Positions 18,513 through 22,531 of a DNA stretch of 44,844 nt are shown in pieces (position 1 is the first letter of the stretch; the number at the start of each line of letters is the position of its first letter). Location of the stretch: the NCBI GenBank assembly GCA_024400785.1, contig JAKSME010000004.1, positions 1 through 44,844 on the forward strand. Direction: 5' to 3'. Made by a program: the position numbers and the translations under genes. This DNA is from Bacteroidales bacterium. GTDB taxonomy: Bacteria; Bacteroidota; Bacteroidia; Bacteroidales; WCHB1-69. Under the pieces are notes generated by a model. That model was not told where the DNA came from, searched no databases, and saw only the letters and a program-made list of their open reading frames with translations.

Positions 18513-18563
18513 ATTTCGATTTTTTATTTGTTTTCTATATAACTATAAATAAAGAAGAATGTT

Positions 18564-19307
18564 CTACTCAAATTGAATGGAAGCACTCGCTTTTGCCTTC
18601 TTCCCTTTTTTTGATTTTTTCGGTGCCTTCTTGGAAAATGAAAAATCACCAAAAAGTTTGCTCAATTTTTCCATGTGAAGCGTGATGTCGAAATAAACAT
18701 CCCAAGTTTTGTCGGGATCATCGTCATACAAAGTCATTACGTCGCAGTTGCCGACCAGGGCCTGCTGTTTTACATTTGCACCAAAGACATTGTAAATGAT
18801 GATGTATTCATCGGGCACTTCCATGACTTTGAAAGCGGTTTTCTCTGTTTTCCCATCTCCCGTGGACAAAATCAGGTAAAACAGTTGCGAAATCTGTATT
18901 TCACAGGTGTCGGCATTAAGATCCAACTCTTTCAAACAGATCCACTCCCGAAATAAAATATCCAAACTGGCGGGCGACACCTTCAACTCTTCGTGACACA
19001 TTTTCAAAGCTTCTTCATACTTTTCTTCTTTGATCAATTGGGACGCTTCTCTTGACAATTCTTTGTATTGATACTTGGAAGAATAGTTTGTGCCATAAAA
19101 TATGTATTTTAACTCATTGGCTTCAAGCAAGGTATCGCCTTCAATGAACCTTGCCATCAATTCGTTATACACTTTTTCGTTTTGGTTGACAAATTTCTCG
19201 ATTTCAGAATAGTTGACCTCCAAAAAAGCGTTGTTTTTTTGCCCGAAGCAATGATTTCCACCGAAGCAGACGATAAGGGTGAACAGCACCGAGAGAATTT
19301 TTTGCAT
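18564..19307 (-). CDS. Exported DUF4919-like protein
   Basis: Signal peptide; YNELMARF..GDT.L, ILSTGDGKTEKTAFKV...DEY and YFDIT motifs. A -7 box TAACTTTG lies at 19332-19339. Confidence 0.75.
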   Translation of the reverse strand: MQKILSVLFTLIVCFGGNHCFGQKNNAFLEVNYSEIEKFVNQNEKVYNELMARFIEGDTLLEANELKYIFYGTNYSSKYQYKELSREASQLIKEEKYEEALKMCHEELKVSPASLDILFREWICLKELDLNADTCEIQISQLFYLILSTGDGKTEKTAFKVMEVPDEYIIIYNVFGANVKQQALVGNCDVMTLYDDDPDKTWDVYFDITLHMEKLSKLFGDFSFSKKAPKKSKKGKKAKASASIQFE

Positions 19308-19402
19308 AAAGAAAAATTTAAAAATGCGGTGCAAAGTTAATACTTTTCTTTGAAATAGAGAAATAAGACTTTGATTCGAAAGTGGAGATGCTAAAGGCCG
19401 CA

Positions 19403-20737
19403 TTAATCATCGGTAAGGAGGAAACACATATACAAAGGCAGTATGAGAAGTGCGCCGATGCGCCCAATGTTATAATCTCCCAGTTTTATGGCTTGCTCCA
19501 CGTGATATTTTTCGGGATGAGCGAGCACGGTTTTCATTGATTTGGCATCCCCCGTTGTTGATTTGCATTCCAAAGGAGTACACTTCCCTTTCCAACGGAT
19601 GACATAATCCAATTCTATTCCTCCGTCTTTATGAAAATAATATAAATGACGGCCCATTTTCCCGAGGACATCAGCCATCAGATTTTCAAAAATCGCACCT
19701 TTGTACCCCAGCAAGTTGCCATTCAATATGTCGGACTGAGTCCCGTTTTCCAATTGACAAACGAGCAAACCAATATCTGCCATATAAACCTTGAACTCAC
19801 TGTTGACGCGGTTCCCATCAAGTGGCAATTCTGTAATATTCAAATTATAACATCTTCGGATGATGCCAGCATCTTCAATCCATTGTAAACTACCAACATA
19901 GTCGCGCCCTCGTCCATTTTTCCGAATGGCTGAGAATGTGAACTTTTTATACTCACGCGCTAATTGAGATGGAATCGACTCAAAGCATTCACGGATGTGC
20001 GATTTGTCTTGTGATGATGCGTACTTTATCATATCAGCTTTGTATTCATCTACAATTCGTCGCTGTACTGTGAGCACTTTGCCAATAAGTCCTGTACTTA
20101 GAAAAGTTTTAACGGATTCAGGCATTCCTCCAACAATGACATATTGGTGCAGCAGTTCTCGAAAACGATGGTGAATGGCAATATCTACAGGGATTTCCGC
20201 TTTTAAACAATCTTTAAGATACTCAATATGAGGTGGTTGTATTCCATTGGCCCACAGCCATTCTTCAAAATCCATAGGGTACATCTCAACGATATGCTCA
20301 AATCCAACAGGAATGGAAAATTCATCATCATCATTCCGTGTTTTTTGCTTGTAACCGTGAACACCTAATAATGAACCCGTGCACATTACGTCGTATCGAC
20401 CATCCAAATGGAAATATTTCAATGCACTGCGCGCCTGCGGACAATCCTGAATTTCATCAAAAACAAAACAAGTGTTATTCTCTTCGATTTCTGCCTCTGG
20501 CAATGCCGCTGTAATTCTCAAAATAATAGTGGCAACAGAAAGATTGGCCGTGAAAAATGCTTTGTATTCCGGATGCTCTCTAAAATCCAGATAAACAACC
20601 TTTTTGTAATTGCGATGTGCAAAATCCAATACGCTACTGGTTTTACCACACTGACGAACACCTTTTACGACAATGGGCTTATGTTCTTTGTCGTTTTTCC
20701 ACTCTTCAAAATAATGTTCAATTTTGCGCCTAAACAT
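19403..20737 (-). CDS. AAA+ ATPase (AAA_14) with DUF4143 and C-terminal PD-(D/E)xK-like region
   Basis: Walker A GVRQCGKT, Walker B FVFDEIQ, TGSLLG, MYPMDFEE, GGMPE, KVYMADIGLL, GAIFEN and ELDYVI...PLECKS. Confidence 0.9.
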   Translation of the reverse strand: MFRRKIEHYFEEWKNDKEHKPIVVKGVRQCGKTSSVLDFAHRNYKKVVYLDFREHPEYKAFFTANLSVATIILRITAALPEAEIEENNTCFVFDEIQDCPQARSALKYFHLDGRYDVMCTGSLLGVHGYKQKTRNDDDEFSIPVGFEHIVEMYPMDFEEWLWANGIQPPHIEYLKDCLKAEIPVDIAIHHRFRELLHQYVIVGGMPESVKTFLSTGLIGKVLTVQRRIVDEYKADMIKYASSQDKSHIRECFESIPSQLAREYKKFTFSAIRKNGRGRDYVGSLQWIEDAGIIRRCYNLNITELPLDGNRVNSEFKVYMADIGLLVCQLENGTQSDILNGNLLGYKGAIFENLMADVLGKMGRHLYYFHKDGGIELDYVIRWKGKCTPLECKSTTGDAKSMKTVLAHPEKYHVEQAIKLGDYNIGRIGALLILPLYMCFLLTDD

Positions 20738-20767
20738 CGTTGTCTTTTTTATTTATTTTGCAATTCT

Positions 20768-20931
20768 CGCACGTTTTCCACCCCAATTTTTGATGAATCA
20801 CGCACGTTTTCCACCCCAATATTTGATGAATCACACACGTTTTCCACCCCAATTTTTGATGAATCACGCACGTTTTCCACCCCAATTTTTGATGAATCAC
20901 ACACGTTTTCCACCCCAATTTTTAGATGAAT
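20768..20931. repeat. Five tandem copies of a 33-bp unit, CRCACGTTTTCCACCCCAATTTTTGATGAATCA, with no spacers
   Basis: Copies start at 20768, 20801, 20834, 20867 and 20900. Variants: G/A at position 2, one T>A in copy 2, and a 1-nt insertion plus truncation in copy 5. Confidence 0.97.
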
Positions 20932-20992
20932 AAATATTTATTTAATTGATATATAGATAATTAAATAAAATATTACCTCTATGCTTGAGGTT

Positions 20993-21000
20993 GCAAATAT
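20993..21000 (-). promoter_or_regulatory. -7 box (TATATTTG) upstream of the repeat array and AAA ATPase
   Basis: The reverse complement of tgcaaatata is TATATTTGCA. I saw no exact TAnnTTTG match between the array and ATG 20737. Confidence 0.6.
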
Positions 21001-21006
21001 ACACTT

Positions 21007-21105
21007 TTTTACAAGATTTAACCGTTTCCACGTTTTACAAGATTTAACCGTTTCCACGTTTTCACGCTTCCACTACTCTTACGTTTTCACGCTTCCTCTA
21101 CTCTT
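21007..21105. repeat. Two adjacent short direct duplications (26 bp x2 exact; 25 bp x2 with one mismatch)
   Basis: 21007-21032 = 21033-21058 (ttttacaagatttaaccgtttccacg). 21056-21080 is nearly identical to 21081-21105 (acgttttcacgcttccwctactctt), and the latter overlaps the stop codon at 21098. Confidence 0.92.
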
Positions 21106-22531
21106 GCTCGCGGTGTCGCAACACCACATTCACCTCCGGATATTTGGCGCGAAGATGGTCGGCGACACTTTGGGCGAAATAAACGGAGCGGTGCTGTCCA
21201 CCGGTGCAACCGCAGTTAACGCAAAGATGCGTGAAACGGCGTTCCAGGTAATTGTCTACGCTCATATCCACTATGGCAAATATATGTTGCTTGAATTCAG
21301 CGACTTCTGGGTATTTTTCCAAATATTCAATCACGTCTCGGTCCTTGCCGGTACTATGTTTGTATTGTGGTTCTCGCCCCGGATTCGGCAGCGCGCGGCA
21401 GTCGAACACAAATCCGCCGCCGTTGCTCGACTCATCGGTGGGAATGCCTTTTTTATAAGAAAAGCTGCTTACCGCCACCGTTAGGCGGCCATCGGTGCTT
21501 TCTGCCGGATTCCAGTCGCGTGCCGCGATGGCGCGCAATACGGAGGTTAATTCCGGCAACTGCAATGCAATTTTGTCGTTATCAAGCAGATAGCGAATGT
21601 TGTCCACCGCCGGCGGGATGCTTTGCAGAAAATGCGACTTTCGTTCGTAGTAGCCGCGATAACCGTAAGCGCCCAAGGTTTGCAGAACGCGAATCAGCAC
21701 GTATCCGTAGTAATGCTGCTGAAATGCGAGACGGTCAACTTCTTGGTAATGAGAAAGTTCATCCAAATAATATTCCAACAGAGCTTCGCGCTCCTGGCTG
21801 GACAACCCCGCTTTGGCTTGAAATAGCAGCGAGGAAACATCATATTGCAGCGCGCCTTTTCTTCCCCCTTGATAATCAATAAAATACAACTGATTATCGT
21901 GTATCATGATGTTGCGTGACTGGAAGTCCCGAAACATGAAATAGTCGTGTTCGGCTGACAATAGAAACTGTATAAGTGTTTGAAAATCATTTTCTAACGC
22001 TTGCTCATCGAAAGGTATGTAAGCCAATTTGAGAAAATAGTATTTGAAATAGTTGAGGTCCCACTGCATTGCTTGTCGGCCAAATTCATCGCACGGATAA
22101 CATTTGGAAAAGTCAAAACCTTTGTGACCGCAAAGTTGCAGTTTTACCAAATGACGCAATGCCTCTTTGAAATAGTTGTAAGCATCGGGGGGTGTGGCGG
22201 TTGTTCCCAGCTCTTTTTTTCTTCTATTTAAAAAAGAAAACAACAATTCATCGCCCAAGTCTTCCAACAGGTAATACATTCTATCATTGCTGATTTTCAA
22301 TATTTTAGGCACATTGATTTTTTCTTGCAAGAAAAAATGGGTAAAGGAAAAAAAAGCCTCATTTTCCTTCAAGTCGTCATTGAAAGCGCCCATCAAAGTG
22401 GTGCCGTCGGACATGAAAAGACGGGTGTAAACGCGATGTGAACCCGACTGAGCGATGGCTTCCGTGCGGGTTACATTTTGTCCGGAAAGTTGCCTTGCTA
22501 ATTGAGTTAAAATATTGATATCAAACGACAT
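21098..22531 (-). CDS. APH/AmgK-like sugar phosphotransferase fused to a RapZ C-terminal domain
   Basis: GSHRVYTR, LEDLGD, FMFRDFQSRNIM, IDYQG and YDVSSLL kinase motifs; the C-terminus has SFSYKKGIP, FVFDCRALPNP and GCTGGQHRSV. Confidence 0.88.
   Translation of the reverse strand: MSFDINILTQLARQLSGQNVTRTEAIAQSGSHRVYTRLFMSDGTTLMGAFNDDLKENEAFFSFTHFFLQEKINVPKILKISNDRMYYLLEDLGDELLFSFLNRRKKELGTTATPPDAYNYFKEALRHLVKLQLCGHKGFDFSKCYPCDEFGRQAMQWDLNYFKYYFLKLAYIPFDEQALENDFQTLIQFLLSAEHDYFMFRDFQSRNIMIHDNQLYFIDYQGGRKGALQYDVSSLLFQAKAGLSSQEREALLEYYLDELSHYQEVDRLAFQQHYYGYVLIRVLQTLGAYGYRGYYERKSHFLQSIPPAVDNIRYLLDNDKIALQLPELTSVLRAIAARDWNPAESTDGRLTVAVSSFSYKKGIPTDESSNGGGFVFDCRALPNPGREPQYKHSTGKDRDVIEYLEKYPEVAEFKQHIFAIVDMSVDNYLERRFTHLCVNCGCTGGQHRSVYFAQSVADHLRAKYPEVNVVLRHREQE

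What the first reader, a model, noticed from the sequence alone, without database searches (positions are those of the whole stretch)
19403..21105. Solitary AAA_14/DUF4143 ATPase with a 5x33-bp repeat array in its leader: candidate undescribed repeat-controlled module
Seen: a lone ATPase gene with Walker A/B motifs and a C-terminal ELD...ECK nuclease-like motif. It is preceded by five spacer-less 33-bp repeats that end 30 bp before its ATG. The only clear -7 box (20993-21000) is upstream of the array, so the array would be transcribed as leader. Two more duplications sit just beyond the promoter, and the gene looks more AT-rich by eye than pgk. Known: AAA_14/DUF4143 proteins are widespread, sporadically distributed and functionally uncharacterised. 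Inference: the array is a cis-partner of the ATPase, either iteron-like operator sites for autoregulation or a copy-number tuning element, on a small acquired islet. It may be a selfish or defence module that recognises its own repeats.
Basis: partly seen in the sequence, partly recalled or inferred. Interest (0 to 1): 0.75.

Follow-up and report, generated by a model that had tools for sequence, protein, structure and literature searches.

The report
Private operator repeats of ATPase-nuclease gene
Five DNA boxes spaced exactly 33 bases apart in front of this very common but uncharacterised ATPase-nuclease gene travel with the gene across bacterial phyla, so they are most likely the protein's own docking sites for controlling itself.

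Summary
A 33-bp x 4.9 array (20768-20931) ends 30 nt before the ATG of a solitary AAA_14/DUF4143 gene (19403-20737, minus strand), which matches PADLOC candidate PDC-S01.

The array is a conserved partner of the gene:
- 75 of 80 orthologue loci carry 2-5 copies of a 20-nt core (consensus AAAGTCGGCAGGAAAATGTG).
- 106 of 113 core spacings are exactly 33 bp, in register with the Bacteroidota -7 box.
- No neighbouring gene family is shared by more than 5 of 80 loci.
- Four paralogues in this genome have their own repeats.
- 19 of 27 distant relatives have 32-34-bp arrays with different cores, and 12 of these arrays lie upstream of the promoter. This favours action on DNA, not RNA.

The predicted fold is AAA+ plus helical domain plus winged helix (Orc/STAND-like), followed by a PD-(D/E)xK nuclease.

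Best reading (about 0.6): these are operator sites bound by the gene's own product. Binding was not shown.

The two duplications beyond the promoter belong to an unrelated genome-wide 8-mer repeat family. The DUF4919 and ATPase genes are an insertion relative to four same-genus genomes.

This scan has noted the same kind of array before on other DNA (e1-5263682, e1-3589650, e1-5037997). I found nothing on it in print.

The parts
19403..20737 (-). AAA_14/DUF4143 ATPase-nuclease gene (444 aa; PADLOC PDC-S01). Domains: AAA+ (about residues 1-165), helical domain (about 168-240), winged helix (about 240-330), PD-(D/E)xK nuclease (about 340-444).
   Evidence: Pfam. PADLOC PDLC04786, E 9e-144. AF2 model pLDDT 94. 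PDB matches 2qen Z 16.1 and 2fna Z 15.2 over residues 1-330. C-terminal half matches winged-helix regulators and PD-(D/E)xK nucleases at Z 4.5-6.7.
20768..20931 (-). 33-bp array. Five 20-nt cores (AAATTGGGGTGGAAAACGTG; the fourth reads ATATTGGGG...) at 20902-20921, 20869-20888, 20836-20855, 20803-20822 and 20770-20789. Each is followed by a 13-nt spacer.
   Evidence: TRF. PWM scores 23.1, 23.1, 23.1, 17.8 and 23.1 bits; the only other sites at or above 17 bits in the 2.1-Mb genome are three isolated single sites (17.0-18.9 bits). Rows in register.
20738..20767 (-). 30-nt A-rich stretch between the last core and the ATG. It takes the place of the 3-10 nt seen in most orthologues.
20932..20993 (-). 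AT-rich stretch between the -7 box and the first core. It is not core-like (PWM -29 and -39 bits). It is shared only with the closest orthologue, L018.
20994..21001 (-). Bacteroidota-type -7 box TATATTTG, preceded by AAAAAAGTG. It corresponds to the family's GAAAATGTG-TAnnTTTG promoter unit.
21007..21105 (.). 26-bp x 2.2 and 25-bp x 2 duplications. They are members of a dispersed intergenic 8-mer repeat family (ACGGTTAA / ACGTGGAA / ACGTGAAA) and are not part of the ATPase module. The 25-bp unit overlaps the stop codon of the rapZ-like gene.
   Evidence: The 41 BLAST matches elsewhere in the own genome all map within query positions 17-140, which cover these duplications and the promoter box; none maps to the 33-bp array. 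49 regex hits against 0 in reversed sequence; 48 of 49 intergenic.
18541..21113 (.). Segment (DUF4919 gene + ATPase gene + repeats) absent from four same-genus genomes, where pgk and the rapZ-like gene lie next to each other (about 45-105 bp between the aligned blocks). It is also low in GC.

Best explanation
The 33-bp array is a private operator lattice of the ATPase-nuclease gene.

Each unit carries a bipartite 20-nt core: box A, AAA(G/C/T)T(C/G)GG; four free bases; box B, (G/T)AAAA(T/C)GTG. I propose that one protomer, or one dimer, of the gene's own product binds each unit. The winged-helix domain would bind one box, and a second surface would bind the other, as Orc1/Cdc6 does on ORB elements. 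Protomers would then line up head-to-tail at a fixed 33-bp pitch.

In this orthologous group the lattice runs from the -7 box to the start codon. Occupancy should therefore shut the gene off. That is negative autoregulation of a potentially toxic nuclease. The copy number (2-5; five here) would set how steep the control is.

Shown: the array, its strict phasing, its inheritance with the gene across phyla and contexts, subfamily-specific cores at constant pitch, placement outside the transcript in many relatives, and an AAA+/winged-helix/nuclease fold.

Inferred: that the protein itself binds, and the sign of regulation.
For: 1. Conservation with the gene. 75 of 80 orthologue loci (57-84% identity) have at least 2 cores within 260 nt upstream on the sense strand: 2 cores in 45 loci, 3 in 24, 4 in 4, 5 in 2. 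There are 188 hits in those upstream windows, against 33 elsewhere on both strands of 517 kb. 106 of 113 successive spacings are exactly 33 bp. The last core ends 3-10 nt before the ATG in 56 of 75 loci, and overlaps the GTG start codon in 8 Fibrobacter loci. The PWM was trained on these same sites, but TRF alone finds period 33 in 40 of 80 loci.

2. Phase with the promoter. 60 of 76 loci have a TAnnTTTG box. 50 of 70 boxes are in exact 33-bp register, and 42 of 70 directly follow ATGTG, a half core that lies upstream of the transcript.

3. The trans factor must travel with the gene. No flanking gene family occurs in more than 5 of 80 loci. There is no conserved 3' element. The Fibrobacterota copies form one clade (support 99) nested among Bacteroidota copies. 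They keep the cores while using a GTG start inside the last core; by eye the flanking hexamers look sigma-70-like. An unverified phage-labelled contig has three cores upstream of a TATAAT.

4. The operator follows the protein, not the host. Within this one genome the five intact paralogues have different units: C132 33 bp x 2.5, C31 about 33 bp, C122 33 bp x 3 (degenerate), C136 23 bp x 4. Among 27 relatives of the C132 paralogue (30-67% identity), 19 have a period 32-34 repeat (17 of them exactly 33), each with a different core. Controls: 0 of 81 coding windows and 14 of 1480 own-genome upstream regions.

5. Action on DNA. In 12 of those 19 relatives the array lies wholly upstream of the -7 box. 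The same holds for the C136 paralogue.

6. More distant subfamilies. 21 of 27 other Bacteroidota DUF4143 genes have a 33-39-bp dyad ending 0-20 nt before the ATG, against 2 of 54 control windows.

7. Fold. Residues 1-330 align with the archaeal AAA+ proteins 2qen and 2fna (Z 16.1 and 15.2), with CED-4 and plant NLRs (Z about 13-14), and with Orc2 1w5t (Z 10.7). Foldseek also lists DNA-bound Orc1 structures 2v1u and 2qby. Residues about 238-333 align with winged-helix DNA binders.

8. Association when searching by DNA alone. Of 23 testable arrays found by DNA pattern alone, 14 precede a full ATPase gene and 4 precede an internally deleted one.
Against:
- Mutual information between protein columns and core positions among orthologues did not localise to the winged helix.
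- The winged-helix and nuclease fold matches of the C-terminal half are only middling (Z 4.5-6.7). In STAND proteins the winged helix usually does not bind DNA.
- 5 of 23 arrays found by DNA pattern have no ATPase gene within 1.6 kb. An array can therefore persist, at least for a while, without the gene.
- In the window itself the array is separated from the -7 box by an AT-rich stretch (80 nt from box start to first core), and the true transcription start is unknown.
- Arrays lie upstream of the promoter in many relatives and downstream of it here, so the sign of regulation cannot be read from position alone.
- Pitches of 33 bp, 23 bp and 22 bp all occur, so no single helical-phase rule explains every subfamily.
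Confidence: 0.6

Rival explanations
1. The protein does bind the array, but transcription control is not the main purpose. The array could be an assembly or anchoring platform that keeps the nuclease parked on 'self' DNA. Or it could be an iteron-like cis site for replication, maintenance or horizontal movement of a one-gene selfish cassette.
For: - The arrangement looks like an initiator plus iterons: direct repeats next to an Orc/STAND-like AAA+ winged-helix gene, and in the window an AT-rich stretch beside them.
- The gene sits at different loci in same-genus genomes, and the window copy is absent from four of them.
- At least one cross-phylum transfer is implied.
- No integrase or other partner gene recurs in the flanks.
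- Several array boundaries in metagenome contigs fall exactly at a core edge (L150, L168).
Against: - The copies lie in chromosomal contexts on contigs up to 318 kb.
- The AT-rich stretch is present only in the window and L018; in most orthologues the promoter abuts the first core.
- There is no second 'end' or conserved 3' element, and no bracketing direct repeats around the window's insertion.
- The strict phase with the promoter box is what a transcriptional operator predicts.
Confidence: 0.15
2. The repeats act in the mRNA leader. They would bind a protein or ribosomes, or form a structure that tunes translation or stability.
For: - In this orthologous group, 59 of 60 loci with a -7 box have all cores downstream of it, so the cores would be transcribed.
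- The last core abuts the start codon.
- The last core carries an ATG less often than earlier cores (27 of 56 against 68 of 87; Fisher p 3e-4, not corrected for kinship).
- Words from the array occur in a metatranscriptome run.
Against: - A half core sits upstream of the -7 box in 42 of 70 boxes.
- In 12 of 19 relatives with period 32-34 arrays, and in the C136 paralogue, the array lies wholly upstream of the promoter.
- There is no fixed-column covariation, and only a weak hairpin tendency (z -2.4 against swapped spacers; mean -2 kcal/mol).
- No Rfam family matches.
Confidence: 0.08
3. The cores are sites for a host factor, or by-products of promoter duplication and replication slippage with no dedicated partner.
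For: - This genome is rich in intergenic tandem repeats: 183 merged TRF arrays of period 15-60.
- Spacers inside some arrays look like -7 boxes, as expected if a 33-bp promoter segment was duplicated.
- Copy number varies from 2 to 5.
Against: - The core is kept across phyla, apparently with different promoter types (by eye).
- Paralogues in one cell have different cores.
- The spacing stays at 33 bp even where spacers have diverged.
- The motif is essentially absent elsewhere: 33 hits in about 1 Mb of flanks scanned on both strands, and no other cluster in the own genome.
Confidence: 0.08

Closest known systems
PADLOC phage-defence candidate PDC-S01 (Pfam AAA_14 + DUF4143; COG1373)
   Same: The protein is a full-length member: PDLC04786 E 9e-144 over residues 1-442, and both Pfam domains score above their cut-offs. 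It is a single gene, sporadically distributed, and sits on a variable segment.
   Different: PDC-S01 is defined by the protein alone. None of the passages I read mentions upstream repeats or DNA-sequence recognition (DUF4143: 4 papers; PDC-S01: 7; COG1373: 8). Its defence role is unproven. The source preprint calls the 145 candidates untested (10.1101/2024.01.29.577857, passages). One representative gave no protection against T4, T5 or T7 in E. coli (10.1101/2024.09.26.614923, section 5).
Plasmid iterons and their Rep initiators (R6K, RK2, pPS10, pSC101, P1). Recalled knowledge, not from a call.
   Same: Direct repeats at a fixed pitch lie next to the gene of a winged-helix protein. In the Rep systems the protein both binds the repeats and represses its own promoter. 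As with Rep, some relatives use direct repeats and others use dyads.
   Different: There is no Rep-family domain. The protein is an AAA+ ATPase fused to a nuclease. The loci are chromosomal cassettes, not replicons. The unit is 33 bp with a bipartite core.
Archaeal Orc1/Cdc6 with ORB elements beside its own gene. The ORB arrangement is recalled; the structures come.
   Same: AAA+ plus helical lid plus C-terminal winged helix. Structural matches to Orc2 1w5t (Z 10.7) and, by Foldseek, to DNA-bound Orc1 2v1u and 2qby (E about 1e-5). Repeated sites of about 20-35 bp lie adjacent to the gene.
   Different: No sequence membership: Pfam lists only AAA_14 and DUF4143. The closer structural neighbours are 2qen/2fna and the STAND proteins. 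There is an added PD-(D/E)xK domain. There is no evidence of origin function.
Archaeal Walker-type ATPases PABY2304 (2qen) and SSO1545 (2fna), and STAND NTPases (CED-4, plant NLRs, Avs)
   Same: These are the best structural matches over residues 1-330: Z 16.1 and 15.2 for the archaeal proteins, and 13-14 for CED-4 and NLRs. The nucleotide-binding, helical and winged-helix modules come in the same order.
   Different: No sequence-level hit to any PDB chain. There is no repeat-type sensor domain. The effector is a C-terminal nuclease. The DNA arrays have no counterpart that I know of in those families.

Membership tests
AAA_14 + DUF4143 (COG1373) / PADLOC PDC-S01 | Profile matches to both domains, and to the PDC-S01 models, over the full length | tested here: met
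   PF13173 75 bits (cut-off 27). PF13635 99.8 bits (cut-off 28.1). PDLC04786 477 bits, residues 1-442.
AAA_14 + DUF4143 (COG1373) / PADLOC PDC-S01 | Intact Walker A, Walker B and PD-(D/E)xK catalytic residues | tested here: met
   G31/K32 invariant. D94/E95, E375, E390 and K392 at least 90% conserved in 84 sequences. The C-terminal 140 residues align with Card1, Can1, McrC and restriction enzymes at Z 5-6.7.
AAA_14 + DUF4143 (COG1373) / PADLOC PDC-S01 | Protection against phage | not testable with these tools
   The literature read here reports the family as untested, and one representative gave a negative result.
Iteron/Rep replication modules | Phased direct repeats next to the gene of the protein that recognises them | tested here: inconclusive
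   Phased repeats beside the gene are met. Recognition by the protein is not testable here.
Iteron/Rep replication modules | Rep-family (WH1-WH2) initiator on an autonomous replicon with an AT-rich unwinding element | tested here: not met
   No Rep domain. Chromosomal contigs of 50-318 kb. An AT-rich stretch occurs only in the window and L018.
Orc1/Cdc6 initiators | AAA+ / lid / winged-helix architecture | tested here: met
   1w5t Z 10.7 over residues 1-330. Foldseek hits 2v1u and 2qby. The winged-helix matches of residues 238-333 are modest (Z 4.5-5.6).
Orc1/Cdc6 initiators | Sequence membership (Cdc6/Orc profiles) | tested here: not met
   Pfam lists only AAA_14 and DUF4143 at E 0.001 or better. 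No PDB chain by sequence at E 1 or better.
STAND NTPases | NBD-helical-WHD module plus a C-terminal repeat sensor (TPR/WD40/LRR) | tested here: not met
   The module resembles CED-4 and NLRs (Z 12-14). The C-terminus, however, is a 100-residue nuclease domain with no repeat sensor.
Cis-regulatory RNA (Rfam) | Match to a curated RNA family, or a covarying structure | tested here: not met
   Only a chance-level mir-973 hit, E 0.38. No fixed-column covariation.

The most novel reading that the evidence does not exclude
PDC-S01 genes are self-recognising one-gene cassettes. An Orc/STAND-like ATPase-nuclease polymerises head-to-tail on a private 33-bp lattice in its own DNA. That lattice would be more than an operator. 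It would mark 'self' and serve as the cis site through which the cassette is maintained, amplified or moved between genomes. On this reading one of the commonest 'defence candidates' is a new kind of selfish element, or a defence gene whose trigger is loss of, or competition for, its own DNA sites.
Probability: 0.12. Interest if true: 0.85.

Novelty: new variant of a known kind. Interest (0 to 1): 0.62.

Why it matters
Papers read here (passages) call PDC-S01 the fourth most common defence system across prokaryotes (PMC12988326) and the most frequent single locus in rumen genomes (PMC13356809). Yet it has no known activity, and its one reported phage test was negative.

A sequence-specific DNA site that is private to each subfamily gives a concrete handle on the family:
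- It predicts that the protein is a site-specific DNA binder.
- It supplies the exact DNA for EMSA, footprinting and cryo-EM.
- It explains how a nuclease gene can be carried safely as a lone cassette.
- It warns that heterologous tests using foreign promoters, or omitting the array, may not report the native behaviour.

The constant 33-bp pitch under freely changing core sequences is also a clean natural data set for working out the recognition code of this winged-helix family.

Tried and rejected
- **RNA hairpin in the unit.** Spacers often end in CACA, which pairs with the core's GTG. But the mean MFE is only -2 kcal/mol, z is -2.4 against spacers swapped between units, and no column pair stands out. 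Dropped as a defining feature.
- **Protein-core mutual information among 74 orthologues.** The top columns are scattered and not in the winged helix. Uninformative.
- **Rfam.** Nothing.
- **Sequence searches.** PDB by sequence: no hit at E 1 or better. NCBIfam: none.
- **Bracketing repeats or a second end.** No direct repeats bracket the insertion. There are 3 PWM hits in the 200 nt after the stop across 78 loci.
- **IUPAC pattern over 301 genomes of the order.** One genome matched, with 0 control matches. The window's own genome did not match because its core reads TTGG where the pattern required TC. The search was therefore too narrow to measure prevalence.
- **Reads.**
  - All four runs are contigs that break at the array, so they say nothing about copy number.
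  - One DNA run (X2) joins across the array with 99 bp (three units) fewer and has a single 26-bp unit. This could be real variation or repeat collapse at k=31.
  - The RNA run X7 covers the ORF up to 20797 and holds array words. It has no contig over 20900-21043, where DNA runs X1 and X2 do. That is at most a weak hint, from one study, that transcription starts near the distal end of the array and not at the 20994-21001 box.
- **Register of the -7 box with the array in the window.** The distance is 80 nt, one more than 13 + 2 x 33, and the intervening DNA is not core-like. There is no evidence for decayed units.
- **Literature search for 'AAA_14'.** It returned unrelated papers.
- **Complex prediction** was not run. 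A homo-oligomer pass would not have separated the readings.
Full report
**What is there**

On the minus strand, a 444-aa ORF (19403-20737) matches Pfam AAA_14 and DUF4143 and the PADLOC candidate family PDC-S01 over its full length (E 9e-144). Thirty nucleotides upstream of its ATG lies a tandem array of period 33 with 4.9 copies, 95% identical, at 20768-20931. It has the top Tandem Repeats Finder score in the window.

Each unit is a 20-nt core (AAATTGGGGTGGAAAACGTG) followed by a 13-nt spacer. An AT-rich stretch separates the array from the only TAnnTTTG box, which lies at 20994-21001. Beyond that box are a 26-bp x 2.2 and a 25-bp x 2 duplication.

GC is about 0.40 over the gene, 0.51 over pgk, and 0.466 for the genome.

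**The duplications beyond the promoter are not part of the module**

I ran BLAST with the 411-nt upstream region against the window's own 2.1-Mb assembly. Apart from the region itself it gave 41 matches. All fall within query positions 17-140, which cover the two duplications and the promoter box. None falls on the 33-bp array.

These duplications belong to a family of intergenic arrays built from 8-mers (ACGGTTAA, ACGTGGAA, ACGTGAAA). A regex finds 49 hits, against 0 in reversed sequence. 48 of 49 are intergenic and 15 lie within 300 nt of a contig end.

**The 33-bp array is inherited with the gene**

The search for related loci returned 80 orthologue loci at 57-84% identity. They come from Bacteroidales, Muribaculaceae, Prevotellaceae, Paludibacteraceae and Fibrobacter, plus a few bins labelled Firmicutes, Treponemataceae or Staphylococcus.

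- TRF alone finds a period-33 repeat in the 400 nt upstream in 40 of 80 loci.
- I built a position weight matrix from the sites (consensus AAAGTCGGCAGGAAAATGTG; positions 9-12 nearly free). It finds at least 2 cores within 260 nt upstream on the sense strand in 75 of 80 loci: 2 cores in 45, 3 in 24, 4 in 4, 5 in 2.
- That is 188 hits in the upstream windows, against 33 elsewhere on both strands of 517 kb.
- 106 of 113 successive spacings are exactly 33 bp; 3 are 32 bp and 2 are 34 bp.
- The last core ends 3-10 nt before the ATG in 56 of 75 loci.
- The five misses are four loci with visibly diverged 33-bp repeats (L071, L073, L080, L092) and one with a displaced match start (L072).
- The matrix was trained on these sites, so the enrichment figure is partly circular. 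The TRF count and the spacing distribution are not.

In the window's own genome, the only other sites at or above 17 bits are three isolated single sites (17.0-18.9 bits); the five array cores score 17.8-23.1 bits.

**Phase with the promoter**

Of 76 loci with at least 2 cores, 60 have a TAnnTTTG box. In 59 of those 60, the most upstream box precedes all scored cores. 50 of 70 boxes lie in exact 33-bp register with the cores, and 42 of 70 directly follow ATGTG, the 3' end of a core.

The promoter box therefore occupies a spacer slot of the lattice, with a half core on its upstream, untranscribed side.

**Solitary cassette, variable context, cross-phylum spread**

- No flanking ORF family recurs in more than 5 of 80 loci.
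- Similarity stops at the stop codon, and there are only 3 core hits in the 200 nt after it across 78 loci.
- In four same-genus genomes, pgk and the rapZ-like gene are adjacent (about 45-105 bp between the aligned blocks). Neither DUF4919 nor the ATPase is found there by tblastn. Window 18541-21113 is therefore an insertion, or a deletion in those genomes.
- Same-genus genomes do carry orthologues (61-64% identity) at other loci, each with a 33-bp array.
- A FastTree tree places the eight Fibrobacterota copies as one clade (support 99) inside a 71-row clade (support 100) made mostly of Bacteroidota. The window pairs with L018, and the same-genus copies fall outside that clade. This is a FastTree result with midpoint rooting only.
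- The Fibrobacter copies keep the cores and use the GTG of the last core as the start codon.

**The repeat follows the protein, not the host**

The genome holds five intact DUF4143 genes and one truncated one. Each intact paralogue has its own repeat:
- C132: 33 bp x 2.5
- C31: about 33 bp
- C122: 33 bp x 3, degenerate
- C136: 23 bp x 4, upstream of its -7 box

I then searched 401 genomes drawn evenly from the order with the C132 paralogue and kept the best 30 loci. Two were dropped because the N-terminus was not matched, and the query's own locus was left out. Of the 27 remaining (30-67% identity), 19 have a direct repeat of period 32-34 in the 170 nt upstream (17 of them exactly 33), each with a different core. 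Controls gave 0 of 81 coding windows and 14 of 1480 upstream regions of crudely called genes in the own genome. Three of those 14 are DUF4143 genes.

In 12 of the 19, the array lies wholly upstream of the -7 box. In 4 the box is inside the array, in 2 the array is downstream, and 1 has no box.

Among the 30 best PF13635 matches in 151 genomes of the phylum, 3 were dropped for technical reasons. Of the 27 kept, 21 have a 33-39-bp dyad ending 0-20 nt before the ATG, against 2 of 54 control windows further upstream. Three have 22-bp direct repeats. Many of these loci are kin, so the counts overstate independence. By eye there are about nine distinct operator types.

**Search by DNA alone**

An IUPAC pattern for two cores found 25 metagenome stretches and one genome locus. 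Three had fewer than 200 nt downstream and could not be tested. Of the 23 testable:
- 14 are followed by a full or contig-cut ATPase gene,
- 4 by an internally deleted one,
- 5 by no recognisable ATPase within 1.6 kb.

The gene can therefore be lost while the array remains.

**The protein**

An AlphaFold2 model built on an 84-sequence alignment has mean pLDDT 94.
- Residues 1-330 align with the archaeal AAA+ proteins 2qen (Z 16.1, rmsd 4.1, 262 aligned) and 2fna (Z 15.2).
- They also align with CED-4 and plant NLRs (Z about 13-14) and with Orc2 1w5t (Z 10.7). Foldseek also lists DNA-bound Orc1 structures 2v1u and 2qby.
- I folded residues 236-444 separately (pLDDT 95). Its first about 95 residues align with winged-helix DNA binders: NsrR Z 5.6, LP_0360 Z 5.1, and the KAT6A and SAMD1 winged helices bound to DNA at Z 4.5.
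- The remaining residues align with PD-(D/E)xK nucleases: Card1 and Can1 Z 6.7, McrC Z 6.4, and several restriction enzymes at Z 5-5.3.

These domain-level Z values are middling. They support the fold assignment but do not prove it.

**Interpretation**

A factor that recognises a core must be present wherever the cassette lands. It must differ between paralogues in one cell, and it must change when the protein changes. The only gene that always accompanies the array is the ATPase itself, and it has an Orc/STAND-type winged helix.

The constant 33-bp pitch under changing sequence points to a geometric constraint set by the protein assembly.

Arrays that lie outside the transcript in many relatives, together with the half core upstream of the -7 box, place the action on DNA. 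In this orthologous group the lattice covers the -7 box through to the start codon, which predicts autorepression.

Binding, cooperativity and the sign of control are inferences.

**Transcription in the window**

Transcription is unresolved. All laid runs are contigs that break at the array. An RNA run covers the ORF up to 20797 and holds array words, but has nothing over 20900-21043, where DNA runs do. This is one study and a weak hint only.

**Literature**

- DUF4143 is listed as a PD-(D/E)XK family of unknown function (PMC3424549, table row).
- PDC-S01 is described as an untested candidate, very common in rumen and archaeal genomes (PMC13356809 and PMC12988326, passages; 10.1101/2024.01.29.577857, passages).
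- One representative gave no protection against T4, T5 or T7 (10.1101/2024.09.26.614923, section 5).
- Full-text searches found 4 papers for DUF4143, 7 for PDC-S01 and 8 for COG1373. I did not open all of them. None of the listings, abstracts or passages I saw mentions upstream repeats or operators. Supplements were not read.

**Earlier notes of this scan**

Earlier notes describe the same kind of array on other DNA: 33-bp in e1-5263682; 23-bp in e1-3589650 and e1-5037997; palindromes in e1-2462785; a paralogue cluster in e1-2306713. I reached my reading before seeing them, and I tested it here on independent loci.

Noticed in passing
window 21007-21105; own genome, e.g. C126:9005-9164, C136:25280-25424, C132:5765-5876, C90:12279-12438: A genome-wide family of intergenic arrays built from 8-mers (ACGGTTAA / ACGTGGAA / ACGTGAAA). 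49 regex hits against 0 in reversed sequence, and many lie at contig ends. The unit CGTGAAAA contains the 3' half of the ATPase core (GAAAACGTG). Whether that is coincidence is unknown.
   Followed up: partly
own genome C122:8797-8914 (locus L143:1798-1915): A second 33-bp x 3.6 array (unit contains GAAAATGTC...AAAGTT) lies upstream of the promoter of a C-5 cytosine DNA methylase gene (PF00145, E 2e-100). It is about 1.7 kb from the C122 DUF4143 paralogue. It might be a further target of one of the ATPases, or an unrelated array.
   Followed up: partly
metagenome loci L148, L150, L164, L166 (deleted genes); L151, L153, L156, L168, L169 (orphan arrays): Arrays with perfect cores persist in front of internally deleted ATPase genes, or with no ATPase at all. 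In L150 and L168 the upstream junction falls exactly at the edge of the first core.
   Followed up: partly
L019, L024, L025, L075-L078, L087 (Fibrobacter loci): In Fibrobacter the protein starts at the GTG that ends the last core. By eye the core and spacer supply sigma-70-like -35 and -10 hexamers (TTGGGC ... TATAAA), so the same lattice appears to have been re-used with a different promoter type.
   Followed up: partly
window 21098-22531 (minus strand): The upstream neighbour is a 477-aa fusion of a phosphotransferase (APH, PF01636) domain with a RapZ C-terminal domain (PF22740). It lacks the usual RapZ P-loop N-terminal domain.
   Followed up: no
window 19306-19403: The DUF4919 ORF as listed starts at a TAATG overlap with the ATPase stop. 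A downstream ATG (MQKILSVLF...) follows its own TAACTTTG box and gives what looks by eye like a signal peptide, so the ATPase is probably monocistronic.
   Followed up: no
window 20802-20902 and 21007-21032, in run X2: A near-identical strain's contig has 99 bp (three units) fewer in the array and a single 26-bp unit. The 26-bp difference is likely real. The 99-bp difference could be repeat collapse in a k=31 assembly.
   Followed up: partly
L201:9195-9300 (MT836311.1, 'UNVERIFIED: Bacteriophage sp.'): A 58%-identical ATPase on an 11-kb contig has three cores (AAAGTCGCTTGAAAAAGTTG type) at about 33-bp spacing upstream of a TATAAT box. The phage label of the record is unverified.
   Followed up: partly
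own genome, e.g. C2:7561-7690, C31:4890-5011, C119:8459-9236, C44:4225-4319: Other dispersed repeat families occur in this small genome: GC-rich hairpin units (GAATTCCCCTCCTTTTTAAGGAGGGGA) and 7-mer arrays (AATGCAT / ATAATTC).
   Followed up: no
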